Shown: positions 2,439-4,385 of the stretch, piece after piece
Layout: each line of letters begins with the position of its first letter
Numbering within the stretch: the stretch's first letter is position 1
DNA from: Escherichia phage MG1
DNA: 5,490 nt
Sequence record: OR702609.1
Reading direction: 5' to 3' (one strand)
Notes under the pieces: generated by a model
Told to the model about the DNA's origin: nothing
The model's database searches: none
The model's input: only the letters and a program-made list of their open reading frames with translations
Made by a program: the position numbers and the translations under genes

Positions 2439-2463
2439 GTGGGACTTCGGCCCCACTCTATTT
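2439..2463 (+). terminator. J-F intergenic stem-loop with UUCG tetraloop (candidate TJ terminator)
   Basis: GTGGG (2439-2443) pairs with CCCAC (2452-2456). An inner C2445:G2450 pair closes a TTCG loop, after an A/C mismatch. Followed by TCTATTT. phiX174 has GGGGCTTCGGCCCC at the same place. Confidence 0.4.
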
Positions 2464-2474
2464 AAGGATACAAA

Positions 2475-3761
2475 ATGTCTAATGTTCAAACTTCTGCCTC
2501 TCGTGATGCAATTGATTTATCACATCTGGTCTTCAACACTGGCGCTATTGGTCGCCTTAAAGTCGCGTCATGGACTCCTGTTGTCGCTGGTGATTCTTTC
2601 CAGCTTGACGCTGTTGGTGCTTTACGCTTATCCCCTCTGCGTCGCGGCCTGGCTATTGACTCAACTGTTGATTACTTCACTTTCTACATTCCACACCGTC
2701 ATATCTATGGCGATGCATGGATTGAATTTATGAAAACTGGCGTTGCTGCCACTTCTCTTAACCCTGTAACTACTGCAGCCTATGTTGACGGCGCTTCTTA
2801 TCTTGGTGTTATTCCTTCTGCTGACAACAAGGTTCCTAAGTTCCTGCATCAAGGCTATCTCAATATTTATAATAATTACTTCAAAGCACCTTGGATGGCT
2901 GACCGTACTGAGGCAAACCCATCTAACTTAAATGATGATGATCGTCGTCATGGCTTCCGCTGCTGTCACTTAAAAAATATTTGGTCTGCGCCTCTTCCTC
3001 CTCAGACGGAAATTACCCGCGCTATGACTACTGGTGCTACTTCCATTGACATCATGGGTCTTCAAGCTGCTTACGCCCAACTTCACACTGACCAAGAACG
3101 TGACTACTTCATGCAACGTTACCGTGACGTAATCTCTTCGTTCGGTGGCAAAACTCACTATGACGCTGACAACCGTCCTCTTTTGCTTATGCGCTCTAAC
3201 TTCTGGGCTTCTGGCTATGACATTGACGGTACTGACCAAACTTCATTAGGTCAATTCTCTGGTCGCGTCCAACAAACTTTCCGCCACTCTGTTCCTCGCT
3301 TCTTCGTACCGGAACATGGCGTTATTATTACTCTTCAACTTGTACGCTTCCCACCTACCTGTACTGAGGAAACTCACTATCTCGTTGGCAAAGGAGCACT
3401 AAACTATACTGACCTCGCGGGTGACCCTACTCTTTACGGTAACTTACCTCCTCGCGAAATCGAAATGAAAACTCTCTTCCGTGGCGCTGCTGGCTCTACT
3501 GAAAAAATCAAAATTGCCGAGGGGCAATGGTATCGCTATCATCCTTCTTACGTTGATGGACAATATCACAACCTCCAAGGCTTCCCGTTCATCCCAAATG
3601 GTCCAACTGGCAACATGGAAAACCGTGTACTGATTGACCATAAAAAATATGACGAATGCTTCCAGTCACTTCAATTAACCCATTGGAATGCTCAAGCTAA
3701 ATACAATGTCACTGTATATCGACACATCCCGACTACTCGTGATAGCATCATGACTTCTTAA
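2475..3761 (+). CDS. F: Major capsid protein F, 428 aa
   Basis: ATG at 2475 with AAGGA about 8 nt upstream. Near-colinear with phiX174 F (MSN.QT, DLSHL, ALRLSPLRRGLAIDSTVD, QGYLNIYNNYFKAPWM, RTEANP, GFRCCHLKNIW, ERDYFMQRY, RDSIMTS). Confidence 0.97.
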   Translation: MSNVQTSASRDAIDLSHLVFNTGAIGRLKVASWTPVVAGDSFQLDAVGALRLSPLRRGLAIDSTVDYFTFYIPHRHIYGDAWIEFMKTGVAATSLNPVTTAAYVDGASYLGVIPSADNKVPKFLHQGYLNIYNNYFKAPWMADRTEANPSNLNDDDRRHGFRCCHLKNIWSAPLPPQTEITRAMTTGATSIDIMGLQAAYAQLHTDQERDYFMQRYRDVISSFGGKTHYDADNRPLLLMRSNFWASGYDIDGTDQTSLGQFSGRVQQTFRHSVPRFFVPEHGVIITLQLVRFPPTCTEETHYLVGKGALNYTDLAGDPTLYGNLPPREIEMKTLFRGAAGSTEKIKIAEGQWYRYHPSYVDGQYHNLQGFPFIPNGPTGNMENRVLIDHKKYDECFQSLQLTHWNAQAKYNVTVYRHIPTTRDSIMTS

Positions 3762-3773
3762 AGCCTATAACGT

Positions 3774-3810
3774 GACAGGGGGAAAAATTTTAATTTTTCG
3801 CCCCCTGTCA
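3774..3810 (+). other. F-G intergenic stem-loop (candidate TF terminator and/or complementary-strand priming site)
   Basis: Perfect 9-bp GC-rich stem: TGACAGGGG (3774-3782) with CCCCTGTCA (3802-3810). It encloses AAAAATTTTAATTTTT, itself self-complementary (AAAAA/TTTTT). The same A/T core occurs in the phiX174 F-G intergenic region. Confidence 0.55.
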
Positions 3811-3860
3811 GGTTGAACAAGCGCAAGCGCGTTAGCTGCCTAACTACAAGGACTACTCAA

Positions 3861-4385
3861 ATGTTTCAGAACTTTGTTACTAAACACAATTCTCCTCAAT
3901 TTACTACTACTATCACAAAGGCCGTCACTCCCGCCGCGTTGGCTCCTGTTATTAATACGCCAACCGCTGCGCGTGGCAATCTCTTTGTGAACCTAACTAC
4001 TACCGCCCTAACTTCTCCGGGCGGTATCTCTGCTGTTGTCGCTATTGACAACTTTTCTCGTACCGACAATCAGGTTATTTCTATTGCTGCCTCTCTTTCT
4101 ACTACTGGCAGTCTAGTACCTGTTCTTTGTCGGTTTGAATCTGCTGCTGTACCAACGGCTATTCCCGCATCTGCGGTTACTTACTATCCGTTGGACTTTA
4201 CATCATCTGCTACCGCTCTGTCCGTCAAGGACTGCGCTACTGTCTCTACTCTTTCTCGCTCTGGCAATCCTGTTTATGTAGGTATTGCCCTTATTGCGAA
4301 ATCATTTACCGCCGGCACTGTATACGGCTCTATCTCAATTAATCAGGTTGACCAAGAAATCACAACTCTGCAACCTCTCAAATAA
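3861..4385 (+). CDS. G: Major spike protein G, 174 aa
   Basis: ATG at 3861 (MFQNFVTKHNS...) aligns with the phiX174 G N-terminus (MFQTFISRHNS); AAGGA about 10 nt upstream. Conserved motifs CRFES..VPT, VKDC.TV, NPVYVG, LQPLK. The track ORF starts at an upstream TTG (3813) that I consider non-genuine. Confidence 0.9.
   Translation: MFQNFVTKHNSPQFTTTITKAVTPAALAPVINTPTAARGNLFVNLTTTALTSPGGISAVVAIDNFSRTDNQVISIAASLSTTGSLVPVLCRFESAAVPTAIPASAVTYYPLDFTSSATALSVKDCATVSTLSRSGNPVYVGIALIAKSFTAGTVYGSISINQVDQEITTLQPLK

What the first reader, a model, noticed from the sequence alone, without database searches (positions are those of the whole stretch)
3762..3860. F-G intergenic region holds a nested perfect hairpin around a conserved A/T core
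A 9-bp GC-rich stem (3774-3782 with 3802-3810) encloses AAAAATTTTAATTTTT, which is itself self-complementary. The A/T core matches what I recall in phiX174, but the flanking stem is different and perfectly paired here, suggesting compensatory evolution that preserves structure. In this family the F-G spacer is associated with the F-distal terminator and with complementary-strand priming (PriA-dependent assembly site in phiX174, DnaG-primed origin in G4), so this is the best candidate in the window for the minus-strand origin.
Basis: partly seen in the sequence, partly recalled or inferred. Interest (0 to 1): 0.5.

Follow-up and report, generated by a model that had tools for sequence, protein, structure and literature searches.

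The report
phiX174-type primosome assembly hairpin
The hairpin between the coat (F) and spike (G) genes is very probably this phage's copy of the known phiX174 signal where the host PriA primosome starts copying the single-stranded genome, so it is real and strongly conserved in shape but a known kind of element.

Summary
The window is a complete 5490-nt microvirus genome, about 96% identical to Escherichia phage Lilleput and G4-like in genes A-D. The reported hairpin exists. AAC 3769-3771 pairs with GTT 3812-3814. A CG bulge lies at 3799-3800 and the A/T core at 3783-3798.

It is the only long local inverted repeat in the genome (DNA fold z = -4.6). The spacer is homologous to the phiX174 F-G spacer, which holds the PriA (n') primosome assembly site and complementary-strand origin overlapping terminator T_F. 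It is not homologous to the G4 DnaG origin, and a G4-origin covariance model finds nothing in the window.

Across eight distinct phage and plasmid versions, 97% of cells pair and 15 of 25 pairs change on both sides. So compensatory evolution is confirmed. Downstream lies an almost invariant box, GGTTGAACAAGCGCAAGCGCGTTAG (3811-3835), containing a GCGNNAGC mini-hairpin motif. Enterobacterial plasmid 'ssi' elements share this box.

Best reading: a PriA-dependent complementary-strand origin, with at most a weak mRNA-level role because no U-tract follows. It is a new member of a known kind. The side observations are origin-cassette swapping within the G4 clade and sharing with plasmids.

The parts
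3759..3761 (+). Gene F stop codon (TAA); left edge of the block that is 100% identical to phage ID2
3769..3814 (+). Hairpin I, 46 nt. It has an AAC/GTT clamp, a G.G mismatch (3772/3811), a 10-bp GC stem, an A/T upper stem and a TTTA loop. It is the homologue of the phiX174 hairpin at nt 2308-2351.
3773..3782 (+). 5' arm of the GC-rich lower stem (TGACAGGGGG)
   Evidence: covarying positions
3783..3798 (+). A/T core AAAAATTTTAATTTTT: AAAAAT 3783-3788 pairs with ATTTTT 3793-3798 around loop TTTA 3789-3792. The full 16-nt core matches phiX174; plasmid pIGMS31 and phages ID18 and PJNS002 carry shorter versions (AAAATTTTAATTTT, AAATTTTAATTT).
3799..3800 (+). Unpaired CG bulge. In phage Lilleto an extra CG in the 5' arm pairs with it.
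3801..3810 (+). 3' arm of the GC-rich lower stem (CCCCCTGTCA)
3811..3835 (+). Nearly invariant box GGTTGAACAAGCGCAAGCGCGTTAG, shared with phiX174, ID18, PJNS002 and plasmid ssi elements
3816..3833 (+). Hairpin II: AAC AA GCG CAAG CGC GTT. The outer pairs covary (ACC/GGT in phiX174, GAC/GTC in IncX3).
   Evidence: phiX174 counterpart nt 2353-2373 is sensitive to mutation on both stems
3821..3828 (+). GCGCAAGC, a match to the GCGNNAGC 'mini-hairpin DNA' motif. phiX174 has GCGAAGC at the same place. A second match, GCGTTAGC, follows at 3829-3836. These are the only two matches on the + strand of the genome.
3831..3844 (+). Tentative hairpin III (GTTAG CTGC CTAAC). The only variation within the Lille group falls in its loop (3838). 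It competes with the outer stem of hairpin II.
   Evidence: weak
3848..3863 (+). Gene G ribosome-binding site (AAGGA) and ATG (3861-3863); right flank, not part of the element

Best explanation
The region 3769 to about 3835 on the packaged (+) strand is a phiX174-type primosome assembly site (n'/PriA-dependent single-strand initiation signal), that is, the origin of complementary-strand synthesis. Inferred mechanism: after the ssDNA enters the cell, SSB coats it. The 46-nt hairpin I and the adjacent GCG(C)AAGC mini-hairpin box stay folded and free of SSB, forming a fork-like structure. PriA binds there, then PriB, DnaT, DnaB/DnaC and DnaG assemble into a mobile primosome. The primosome primes, and Pol III converts the ssDNA to the replicative form. 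What is shown here is the homology, the conserved structure, the strand, and the absence of a G4-type origin. PriA binding and priming are inferred from phiX174. Because all genes are transcribed in the same sense, the same hairpins also form in the mRNA. There they may act as a weak T_F-like barrier or 3' stabiliser, but the lack of a U-tract makes this secondary.
For: (1) Homology. Blastn aligns the window's F-G spacer with the phiX174 spacer but not with G4's. Read side by side, both have ATAACG-[hairpin with AAAAATTTTAATTTTT]-GGTTGAMCAAGCG(C)AAGCGCGKTAG. Model R1 scores window 3765-3839 (+) at 85 bits, and this is the only site in the genome.
(2) Function of the phiX174 homologue. It is described as T_F overlapping ori(-) and as a PriA binding site, with the second hairpin (nt 2353-2373) sensitive to mutation on both stems. 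Other papers call it the 'primosome binding site' and describe the pas as a fork-like hairpin on which PriA, PriB, PriC and DnaT load DnaB.
(3) Structure under selection. 97% of cells pair and 15 of 25 pairs change on both sides; with 13 sequences the figures are 93.5% and 18 of 25. All variants fold into the same 44-48-nt DNA hairpin. Five ungapped variants keep 17-nt arms, and the window has 17 and 19.
(4) No alternative origin. The G4/alpha3 origin model finds nothing in the window, and nhmmer on the circularised genome finds nothing either. The F-G spacer is the only long spacer.
(5) Independent replicons. The same box plus a different hairpin sits in the 'ssi' of rolling-circle plasmids pIGMS31 and relatives, next to ssb on mobilizable plasmids, and in IncX3 plasmids.
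(6) Boundary. Experimentally evolved phiX174 lines deleted 15-20 nt between the F stop and the hairpin, stopping exactly at the hairpin base. The window has only 7 nt there.
Against: There is no experiment on this phage or any Lille/ID2/ID18 relative; the function rests on homology.
In phiX174 many 5'-stem mutations raise laboratory fitness, so tight pairing is not simply optimal.
The plasmid ssi elements are dispensable for replication.
Several stems keep pairing through G.T wobbles (ID18, PJNS002). These are better tolerated as G.U in RNA, which hints at some selection at the mRNA level.
The 100% identity to ID2 over 84 nt may reflect recent recombination rather than constraint.
Confidence: 0.8

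Rival explanations
1. The hairpins act only at the RNA level, as the F-distal intrinsic terminator (T_F) or an mRNA 3'-end stabiliser that sets the F:G expression ratio, and have no role in replication.
For: The phiX174 homologue is annotated as the Rho-independent terminator T_F and blocks 20-40% of transcription. The RNA fold is as significant as the DNA fold (z = -4.35). Some relatives keep pairing with G.U-compatible wobbles.
Against: No U-tract follows hairpin I (GGTTGAAC) or hairpin II (GTTAGCTGCC) in the window, unlike the GGTTTTC of phiX174. The terminator scan does not call this site. The invariant 3' box also occurs in plasmid ssi elements and in plasmid spacers antisense to the flanking genes, which a phage mRNA terminator would not explain. 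No other origin candidate exists in the genome.
Confidence: 0.1
2. It is a G4-type origin: DnaG primase alone recognises the hairpins on SSB-coated DNA and lays a single primer, as in G4, alpha3 and St-1.
For: The phage is G4-like in genes A-D (78-93% identity), and G4's origin lies in the same F-G spacer. The box contains a mini-hairpin motif of the kind found in G4 hairpin I.
Against: There is no sequence or structure match. Model R2 gives 142 bits on G4 and 174 bits on an alpha3-like locus, but at most 7.8 bits (E about 2) in the window. Blastn and nhmmer find nothing. There is no counterpart of the conserved G4 CTACTG primer-start context downstream of a stem-loop I. The spacer is 99 nt against G4's 136 nt.
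Confidence: 0.03
3. It binds another factor, or is mainly a recombination cassette boundary with no priming role. Candidates are a phage protein such as A/A*, C or J, or a host protein that binds A/T-rich DNA.
For: The A/T core is conserved among microviruses and pIGMS31, yet it is not needed for family membership (L103, L021, L076 and IncX3 have GC-rich tips). The window and ID2 share a 100% identical 84-nt block between diverged genes.
Against: No data point to such a factor. The plasmids that carry the element encode none of the phage proteins. The phiX174 homologue has a described PriA role.
Confidence: 0.04
4. It is a chance palindrome with no function.
For: None beyond the small size of the element.
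Against: Fold z-scores are about -4.5. It is a unique long inverted repeat in the genome. Covariation is massive. It is conserved across phage clades and plasmids.
Confidence: 0.01

Closest known systems
phiX174 n'/PriA recognition site (primosome assembly site, ori(-)) in the F-G spacer, overlapping terminator T_F (phiX174 nt about 2304-2375)
   Same: It lies in the same spacer and on the same strand. The hairpin has the same design: an AAC-G...G-GTT clamp, 17-nt arms, and the AAAAATTTTAATTTTT tip. It carries the same 3' box, GGTTGAMCAAGCG(N)AAGCGCGKTAG, with hairpin II.
   Different: Six of the ten lower-stem pairs differ, three of them by changes on both sides. The phiX174 tandem G.A/A.G mismatches are Watson-Crick pairs here. 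The window has an extra CG bulge. It has GCGCAAGC instead of GCGAAGC (a 1-nt insertion). ACC/GGT becomes AAC/GTT. No T-tract follows hairpin II. The spacer between the F stop and the hairpin is 7 nt rather than 23 nt.
'ssi' (single-strand initiation) palindromes of pHW126-family rolling-circle plasmids (pIGMS31, pIGRK); similar elements beside ssb on mobilizable plasmids and in IncX3 plasmids
   Same: They share the architecture and nearly the same 3' box; the plasmid copies match phiX174 exactly over 26 nt. Hairpin length is 44-47 nt. pIGMS31 has nearly the same A/T core (AAAATTTTAATTTT). R1 scores are 48-84 bits. The literature assigns them lagging-strand priming.
   Different: They sit in double-stranded plasmid replicons, where they are dispensable (their loss causes multimers and a higher copy number). 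Their hairpin sequences are unrelated, and most keep the tandem G.A mismatch that the window lacks.
G4-type DnaG-dependent complementary-strand origin (G4 F-G spacer; alpha3-like G-H spacer)
   Same: It plays the same biological role (ss-to-RF priming) and, in G4, occupies the same genomic slot between conserved F-end and G-start sequences. It also contains a GCGAAAGC mini-hairpin.
   Different: There is no homology. It spans about 140 nt with three hairpins and a CTG primer start, and it needs primase alone, without PriA. It is absent from the window.
Mini-hairpin DNA motif GCGNAGC / GCGNNAGC (Kimoto and Hirao review, PMC13037366)
   Same: The window's GCGCAAGC (a GBAA-type loop) and GCGTTAGC (a GTTA loop) fit the variants listed as acceptable. 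The motif is reported at phage ssDNA replication start sites and binds SSB poorly.
   Different: The review discusses G4, St-1, alpha3 and RSF1010 ssiA, not this PriA-type site. The stability of these two particular octamers in this context was not measured. A Watson-Crick register (GCG/CGC) is an alternative fold.

Membership tests
phiX174-type primosome assembly site (PriA/n'-dependent ssi) | Lies on the packaged (+) ssDNA strand in a non-coding spacer (F-G in phiX174) | tested here: met
   R1 match at window 3765-3839 on the + strand at 85 bits. The minus-strand match (30.6 bits) covers only the palindromic hairpin. The spacer is 3762-3860.
phiX174-type primosome assembly site (PriA/n'-dependent ssi) | Stable hairpin of about 44 nt (phiX174 nt 2308-2351) that persists in ssDNA | tested here: met
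   A 46-nt hairpin with dG = -16.1 kcal/mol using DNA parameters, and the same shape in 11 variants. Covariation.
phiX174-type primosome assembly site (PriA/n'-dependent ssi) | Sequence homology to the phiX174 site, including the box after the hairpin (AAGCG repeats, hairpin II) | tested here: met
   Blastn alignment to phiX174 nt 2171-2371. Box GGTTGAACAAGCGCAAGCGCGTTAG versus GGTTGACCAAGCG-AAGCGCGGTAG.
phiX174-type primosome assembly site (PriA/n'-dependent ssi) | Binds PriA and stimulates its ATPase; priming needs PriA, PriB, DnaT, DnaB/DnaC and DnaG | not testable with these tools
   Biochemical property, known only for phiX174.
G4-type DnaG-only origin | Region of about 140 nt with three conserved stem-loops and a CTG primer start next to stem-loop I | tested here: not met
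   Model R2 gives 142 bits on G4 and 174 bits on an alpha3-like locus, with a best window score of 7.8 bits (E about 2). Nhmmer and blastn on the circularised window find nothing.
Rho-independent terminator (T_F) | GC-rich stem-loop in the transcript | tested here: met
   RNA fold -34.4 kcal/mol, z = -4.35.
Rho-independent terminator (T_F) | U-tract immediately after the stem | tested here: not met
   Hairpin I is followed by GGTTGAAC and hairpin II by GTTAGCTGCC. The terminator scan does not list the site. phiX174 has GGTTTTC.
Mini-hairpin DNA (GCGNAGC/GCGNNAGC) | Sequence motif with two G-C pairs closing a G(N)NA loop | tested here: met
   GCGCAAGC at 3821-3828 and GCGTTAGC at 3829-3836 are the only + strand matches. 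Both loop variants are listed as acceptable.
Mini-hairpin DNA (GCGNAGC/GCGNNAGC) | Extraordinary thermal and nuclease stability; poor SSB binding | not testable with these tools
   Needs melting and SSB-binding assays. Nearest-neighbour folding does not model this.
Filamentous-phage-type minus origin (RNA polymerase primed) | Hairpins that mimic -35/-10 promoter elements | tested here: inconclusive
   The promoter scan finds nothing inside the hairpin; the nearest site, 3719-3748, lies upstream within gene F. However, that scan is designed for duplex promoters. GTGACA in the stem is not conserved in phiX174 or ID18.

The most novel reading that the evidence does not exclude
The F-G spacer may be an exchangeable 'origin cassette'. 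Within one phage clade (the G4-like microviruses), a PriA-type site (this window, the Lille phages, ID2, ID18, PJNS002) and a DnaG-type origin (G4 proper) occupy the same slot between the conserved F end and G start. The window and ID2 share an 84-nt cassette at 100% identity although the flanking genes are only 55-66% identical. The same cassette design also circulates in enterobacterial plasmids: a hairpin of free sequence but fixed length, followed by the invariant mini-hairpin box GGTTGAMCAAGCG(N)AAGCGCGKTAG. On this reading the invariant box, not the large hairpin, is the sequence-specific determinant of primosome assembly, and origin type is a horizontally traded trait.
Probability: 0.4. 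Interest if true: 0.55.

Novelty: new member of a known kind. Interest (0 to 1): 0.35.

Why it matters
The finding assigns a replication-priming mode to a group of G4-like coliphages (the Lille phages, ID2, ID18, PJNS002) that one might assume prime like G4. They carry the phiX174-type PriA site, so they should depend on the host restart primosome, which is directly testable on priA or dnaT mutants. The natural variants amount to a ready-made compensatory-mutation series. They define what is fixed in this site: hairpin length, the AAC/GTT clamp and the mini-hairpin box. They also show what is free: the stem sequence and the G.A versus Watson-Crick pairs. That is useful for PriA-DNA recognition studies and for engineering phiX174-like genomes. 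For a specialist the main identification is unsurprising.

Tried and rejected
(1) G4-type origin. I built model R2 from G4-like and alpha3-like origins and searched the window with filters off, and ran nhmmer and blastn on the circularised genome. Nothing was found.
(2) Rfam. No family matches anywhere in the window.
(3) Intrinsic terminator. The consensus scan does not call the site, and no U-tract follows it.
(4) The genome-contig scan with the conserved box was swamped by phiX174 spike-in contigs in 'bacterial' assemblies.
(5) Several metagenome hits to the box are coding-sequence coincidences: GC-rich soil contigs, and L022, which I judged on sight to be an enterobacterial coding sequence. 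I discarded them.
(6) Per-nucleotide fitness values for phiX174 nt 2300-2394 were sought in the mutagenesis preprint's supplements, but the stored table is cut before that region.
(7) Shlomai and Kornberg 1980, Szymanski 2011 and Rokyta 2006 are not in the held library. The '55-nt fragment / 44-nt hairpin' description therefore rests on my own knowledge plus the coordinates.
(8) I found no paper in the held library stating that ID2, ID18 or Lille-type phages carry the phiX174-type site. It may still be noted in Rokyta et al. 2006.
(9) Hairpin III (3831-3844) is not consistently formable in ID18 or phiX174 and stays tentative.

Full report
**What the window is.** The 5490 bases are a complete microvirus genome with the gene order A-(B,K)-C-D-(E)-J-F-G-H, starting at the A start codon. 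It is 96.4% identical to Escherichia phage Lilleput and 93-96% identical to the other 'Lille' phages and SECphi17. The next relatives are the G4-like phages at about 79-81% identity.

**The observation.** The hairpin is real.
- TGACAGGGGG (3773-3782) pairs perfectly with CCCCCTGTCA (3801-3810).
- Inside lies AAAAATTTTAATTTTT (3783-3798), which folds as AAAAAT/ATTTTT around a TTTA loop.
- An unpaired CG sits at 3799-3800.
- Outside, AAC (3769-3771) pairs with GTT (3812-3814) across a G.G mismatch, giving a 46-nt hairpin.

The spacer folds far better than shuffles, with z = -4.58 as DNA and -4.35 as RNA and 0 of 200 shuffles as good. This is the only substantial local inverted repeat in the whole genome.

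**What it is homologous to.** A sensitive blastn of the spacer with its flanks reaches the Lille phages, ID2, FL68, PJNS002, ID18 and EMCL318. It then reaches about a hundred phiX174 records, aligning through window position 3835. It does not reach G4 proper. Reading the spacers side by side settles the matter.
- G4 and its close kin carry a 136-nt spacer with GGACGGCGAAAGCCGCCGTCCCTACTG.
- phiX174 has TATAACG-CCGAAGCGGT-AAAAATTTTAATTTTT-GCCGCTGAGG-GGTTGACCAAGCGAAGCGCGGTAGG.
- The window has TATAACG-TGACAGGGGG-AAAAATTTTAATTTTT-CG-CCCCCTGTCA-GGTTGAACAAGCGCAAGCGCGTTAGC.

The flanks ATAACG and GGTTGAMCAAGCG(N)AAGCGCGKTAG are conserved as well.

**What the phiX174 region does.** A 2026 saturation-mutagenesis preprint describes it as terminator T_F overlapping ori(-), the complementary-strand origin. 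It places the 5' stem of the hairpin at nt 2308-2326 and calls the hairpin a PriA binding site. It adds that a second, shorter hairpin at nt 2353-2373 is mutation-sensitive on both stems. That second hairpin corresponds to the conserved box found here. Another paper calls nt 2305 part of the 'primosome binding site'. A review describes the pas as a fork-like hairpin on SSB-coated phiX174 DNA where PriA, PriB, PriC and DnaT load DnaB. From my own knowledge (Shlomai and Kornberg 1980, listed but not readable here), the n' protein protects a 55-nt fragment containing a 44-nt hairpin. Here AAC...GTT in phiX174 spans 2308-2351, which is exactly 44 nt.

**Compensatory evolution.** The relatives supply several different stems in the same frame.
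- ID18 has TTGAACGGGTAC/GTGCCTGTTCAA.
- PJNS002 has TTGCCGGGGGAT/ATCCTTCGGCAA.
- phiX174 has CCGAAGCGGT/GCCGCTGAGG, with a tandem G.A/A.G mismatch.
- Lilleto carries an extra CG in the 5' arm that pairs with the window's CG bulge.
- One metagenomic relative has AACC instead of AACG, which closes the G.G mismatch.

In five ungapped variants both arms are 17 nt; in the window they are 17 and 19 nt. On an alignment of 8 distinct sequences with the structure I specified, 97% of cells form standard pairs and 15 of 25 pairs change on both sides. None of 500 shuffles reaches any measure, and sliding the partners by 1-3 columns drops pairing to 33-47%. The only non-pairs are the tandem G.A positions. 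Hairpin II also covaries: ACC/GGT in phiX174, AAC/GTT in the window, and GAC/GTC in IncX3 plasmids. Realigning 13 sequences to the model, including five that were not used to build it, gives 93.5% pairing and 18 of 25 double-changed pairs. That alignment leans towards the model. All eleven variants fold, with DNA parameters, into the same 44-48-nt hairpin (dG -10 to -24 kcal/mol).

**PriA-type, not G4-type.** A covariance model of the G4-type origin was built from G4-like F-G spacers and from the homologous region I found in the G-H spacer of alpha3-like phages. It scores 142 bits on G4 and 174 bits on an alpha3-like locus. It scores at most 7.8 bits (E about 2) anywhere in the window, ID2, ID18 or phiX174. 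Nhmmer on the circularised window is also negative. Conversely, the PriA-site model R1 finds one site in the window (3765-3839, + strand, 85 bits) and none in G4 or the alpha3-like loci. So the two origin types are mutually exclusive among these phages, and this G4-like genome carries the phiX174 type.

**Boundaries.** Two experimentally evolved phiX174 isolates (AF299307, AF299303) have lost 15 and 20 nt between the F stop and the hairpin. The deletions end exactly at (AT)AAC, the hairpin base, and leave everything downstream intact. This marks the 5' edge of what phiX174 needs, and it matches the window's compact 7-nt spacer. On the 3' side, the window and ID2 are identical up to 3845 and diverge afterwards.

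**The conserved box.** The stretch 3811-3835 contains GCGCAAGC (3821-3828) immediately followed by GCGTTAGC (3829-3836). These are the only two GCGNNAGC matches on the packaged strand. phiX174, ID18, PJNS002 and the plasmids have GCGAAGC at the first position. A 2026 review describes GCGNAGC/GCGNNAGC 'mini-hairpin DNA' as extraordinarily stable. It lists GBAA and GTTA loops as acceptable variants. It reports the motif at phage ssDNA replication starts and says it binds SSB poorly. A Watson-Crick register (GCG-CAAG-CGC) is an equally possible fold, and I cannot tell the two apart.

**Independent support from plasmids.** Scanning metagenomes with the box returned contigs that match phiX174 exactly over 26 nt (GGGTTGACCAAGCGAAGCGCGGTAGG) but are preceded by unrelated hairpins of the same size.
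- One type is the 2.5-kb rolling-circle plasmid pIGMS31 and its relatives. Its hairpin even keeps an AAAATTTTAATTTT tip.
- A second type belongs to related small Klebsiella plasmids.
- A third type lies beside an ssb gene on mobilizable plasmids.
- IncX3 plasmids carry a diverged copy, plus a weaker second one on the other strand.

The pIGMS31 and pIGRK papers annotate a palindromic 'ssi' for lagging-strand priming. It is dispensable, but its loss causes multimers and a higher copy number. I did not confirm from coordinates that their 'ssi' is this exact element. These contexts argue that the element works on DNA in priming, not as a phage mRNA signal.

**The RNA-level alternative.** The same hairpins form in the mRNA, and in phiX174 T_F blocks 20-40% of transcription. 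In the window neither hairpin is followed by a U-tract, and the terminator scan does not list the site. Any terminator activity should therefore be weak. The G.T wobbles in the ID18 and PJNS002 stems would be more comfortable as G.U, so a secondary role in mRNA stability cannot be excluded.

**A side result.** Between the window and ID2, the last 300 nt of F are 61% identical (45% at third codon positions) and the first 300 nt of G are 55% identical. Yet 3762-3845 is 84/84 identical. Other relatives show that the stem sequence is free to vary, so recent exchange of the spacer as a cassette is a more economical explanation than constraint alone. Short gene ends conserved across all these phages flank the slot (ATGAC.TC.TAA on the left, ATGTT.CAG on the right). 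The same slot holds the DnaG-type origin in G4.

**Verdict.** This is a new member of a known kind. Function rests on homology, so the decisive tests are plating on priA or dnaT mutants and reconstituted ss-to-RF priming.

Noticed in passing
window 3762-3845 versus L003 (ID2) 3830-3913: This 84-nt stretch of spacer is 100% identical between the window and ID2. The flanking F 3' end is 61% identical (third codon positions 45%) and the G 5' end 55%. This suggests recent exchange of the spacer as a cassette between lineages.
   Followed up: partly
L111 2090-2161 (pIGMS31); L106 1261-1333; L021 462-534; L103 1933-2004; L076 12936-13010; L233 1960-2032 and 3263-3335(-): Enterobacterial plasmids carry the phiX174 box GGGTTGACCAAGCGAAGCGCGGTAG (diverged in IncX3) after an unrelated hairpin of the same length. 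They include small rolling-circle plasmids, an ssb-adjacent site on mobilizable plasmids, and IncX3. IncX3 has a second, weaker copy on the opposite strand.
   Followed up: partly
L243 (Lilleen, MK629526), about locus 330-345: The Lilleen record lacks 148 nt, covering the F stop, the whole F-G spacer and the G start. Its F and G annotations consequently overlap. This is most likely an assembly artefact or a defective genome.
   Followed up: partly
L245 / L246 (evolved phiX174 isolates AF299307, AF299303): Laboratory-evolved phiX174 lines carry 15- and 20-nt deletions between the F stop and the hairpin that end exactly at the hairpin base. AF299307 also has a T-to-A change in the T-tract after hairpin II and a T-to-C change further downstream.
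   Followed up: yes
L005-L010, L012 (alpha3-like loci), F-G spacer and about 3060-3200: Alpha3-like phages have only a 37-nt F-G spacer, containing a GGGGCTTCGGCCCC hairpin followed by TTT. They carry a G4-type origin homologue downstream of gene G (55 bits by nhmmer, 174 bits with R2).
   Followed up: partly
window 3821-3836: Two back-to-back matches to the mini-hairpin motif, GCGCAAGC and GCGTTAGC, are the only matches on the + strand. The other five matches in the genome are on the minus strand.
   Followed up: partly
window 2439-2456 and 3719-3748: A terminator-like hairpin GTGGGACTTCGGCCCCAC followed by a T-rich tail lies just upstream of gene F, in the position I expect for the phiX174 T_J terminator. 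A promoter-like site with an extended -10 (TCGACA, 18 nt, TG-TAGCAT) lies inside the end of F, just upstream of the spacer.
   Followed up: no
L113-L232 (genome-contig scan) and hits H88, H89, H109-H114: Over a hundred 'bacterial', 'plasmid' and even 'phage' records are phiX174 sequencing spike-in contamination. They come from unrelated taxa (for example Protaetiibacter phage SSC1, Mycolicibacterium phage J1 and Vibrio 'plasmids' of 5386 bp). They saturated the genome scan.
   Followed up: no
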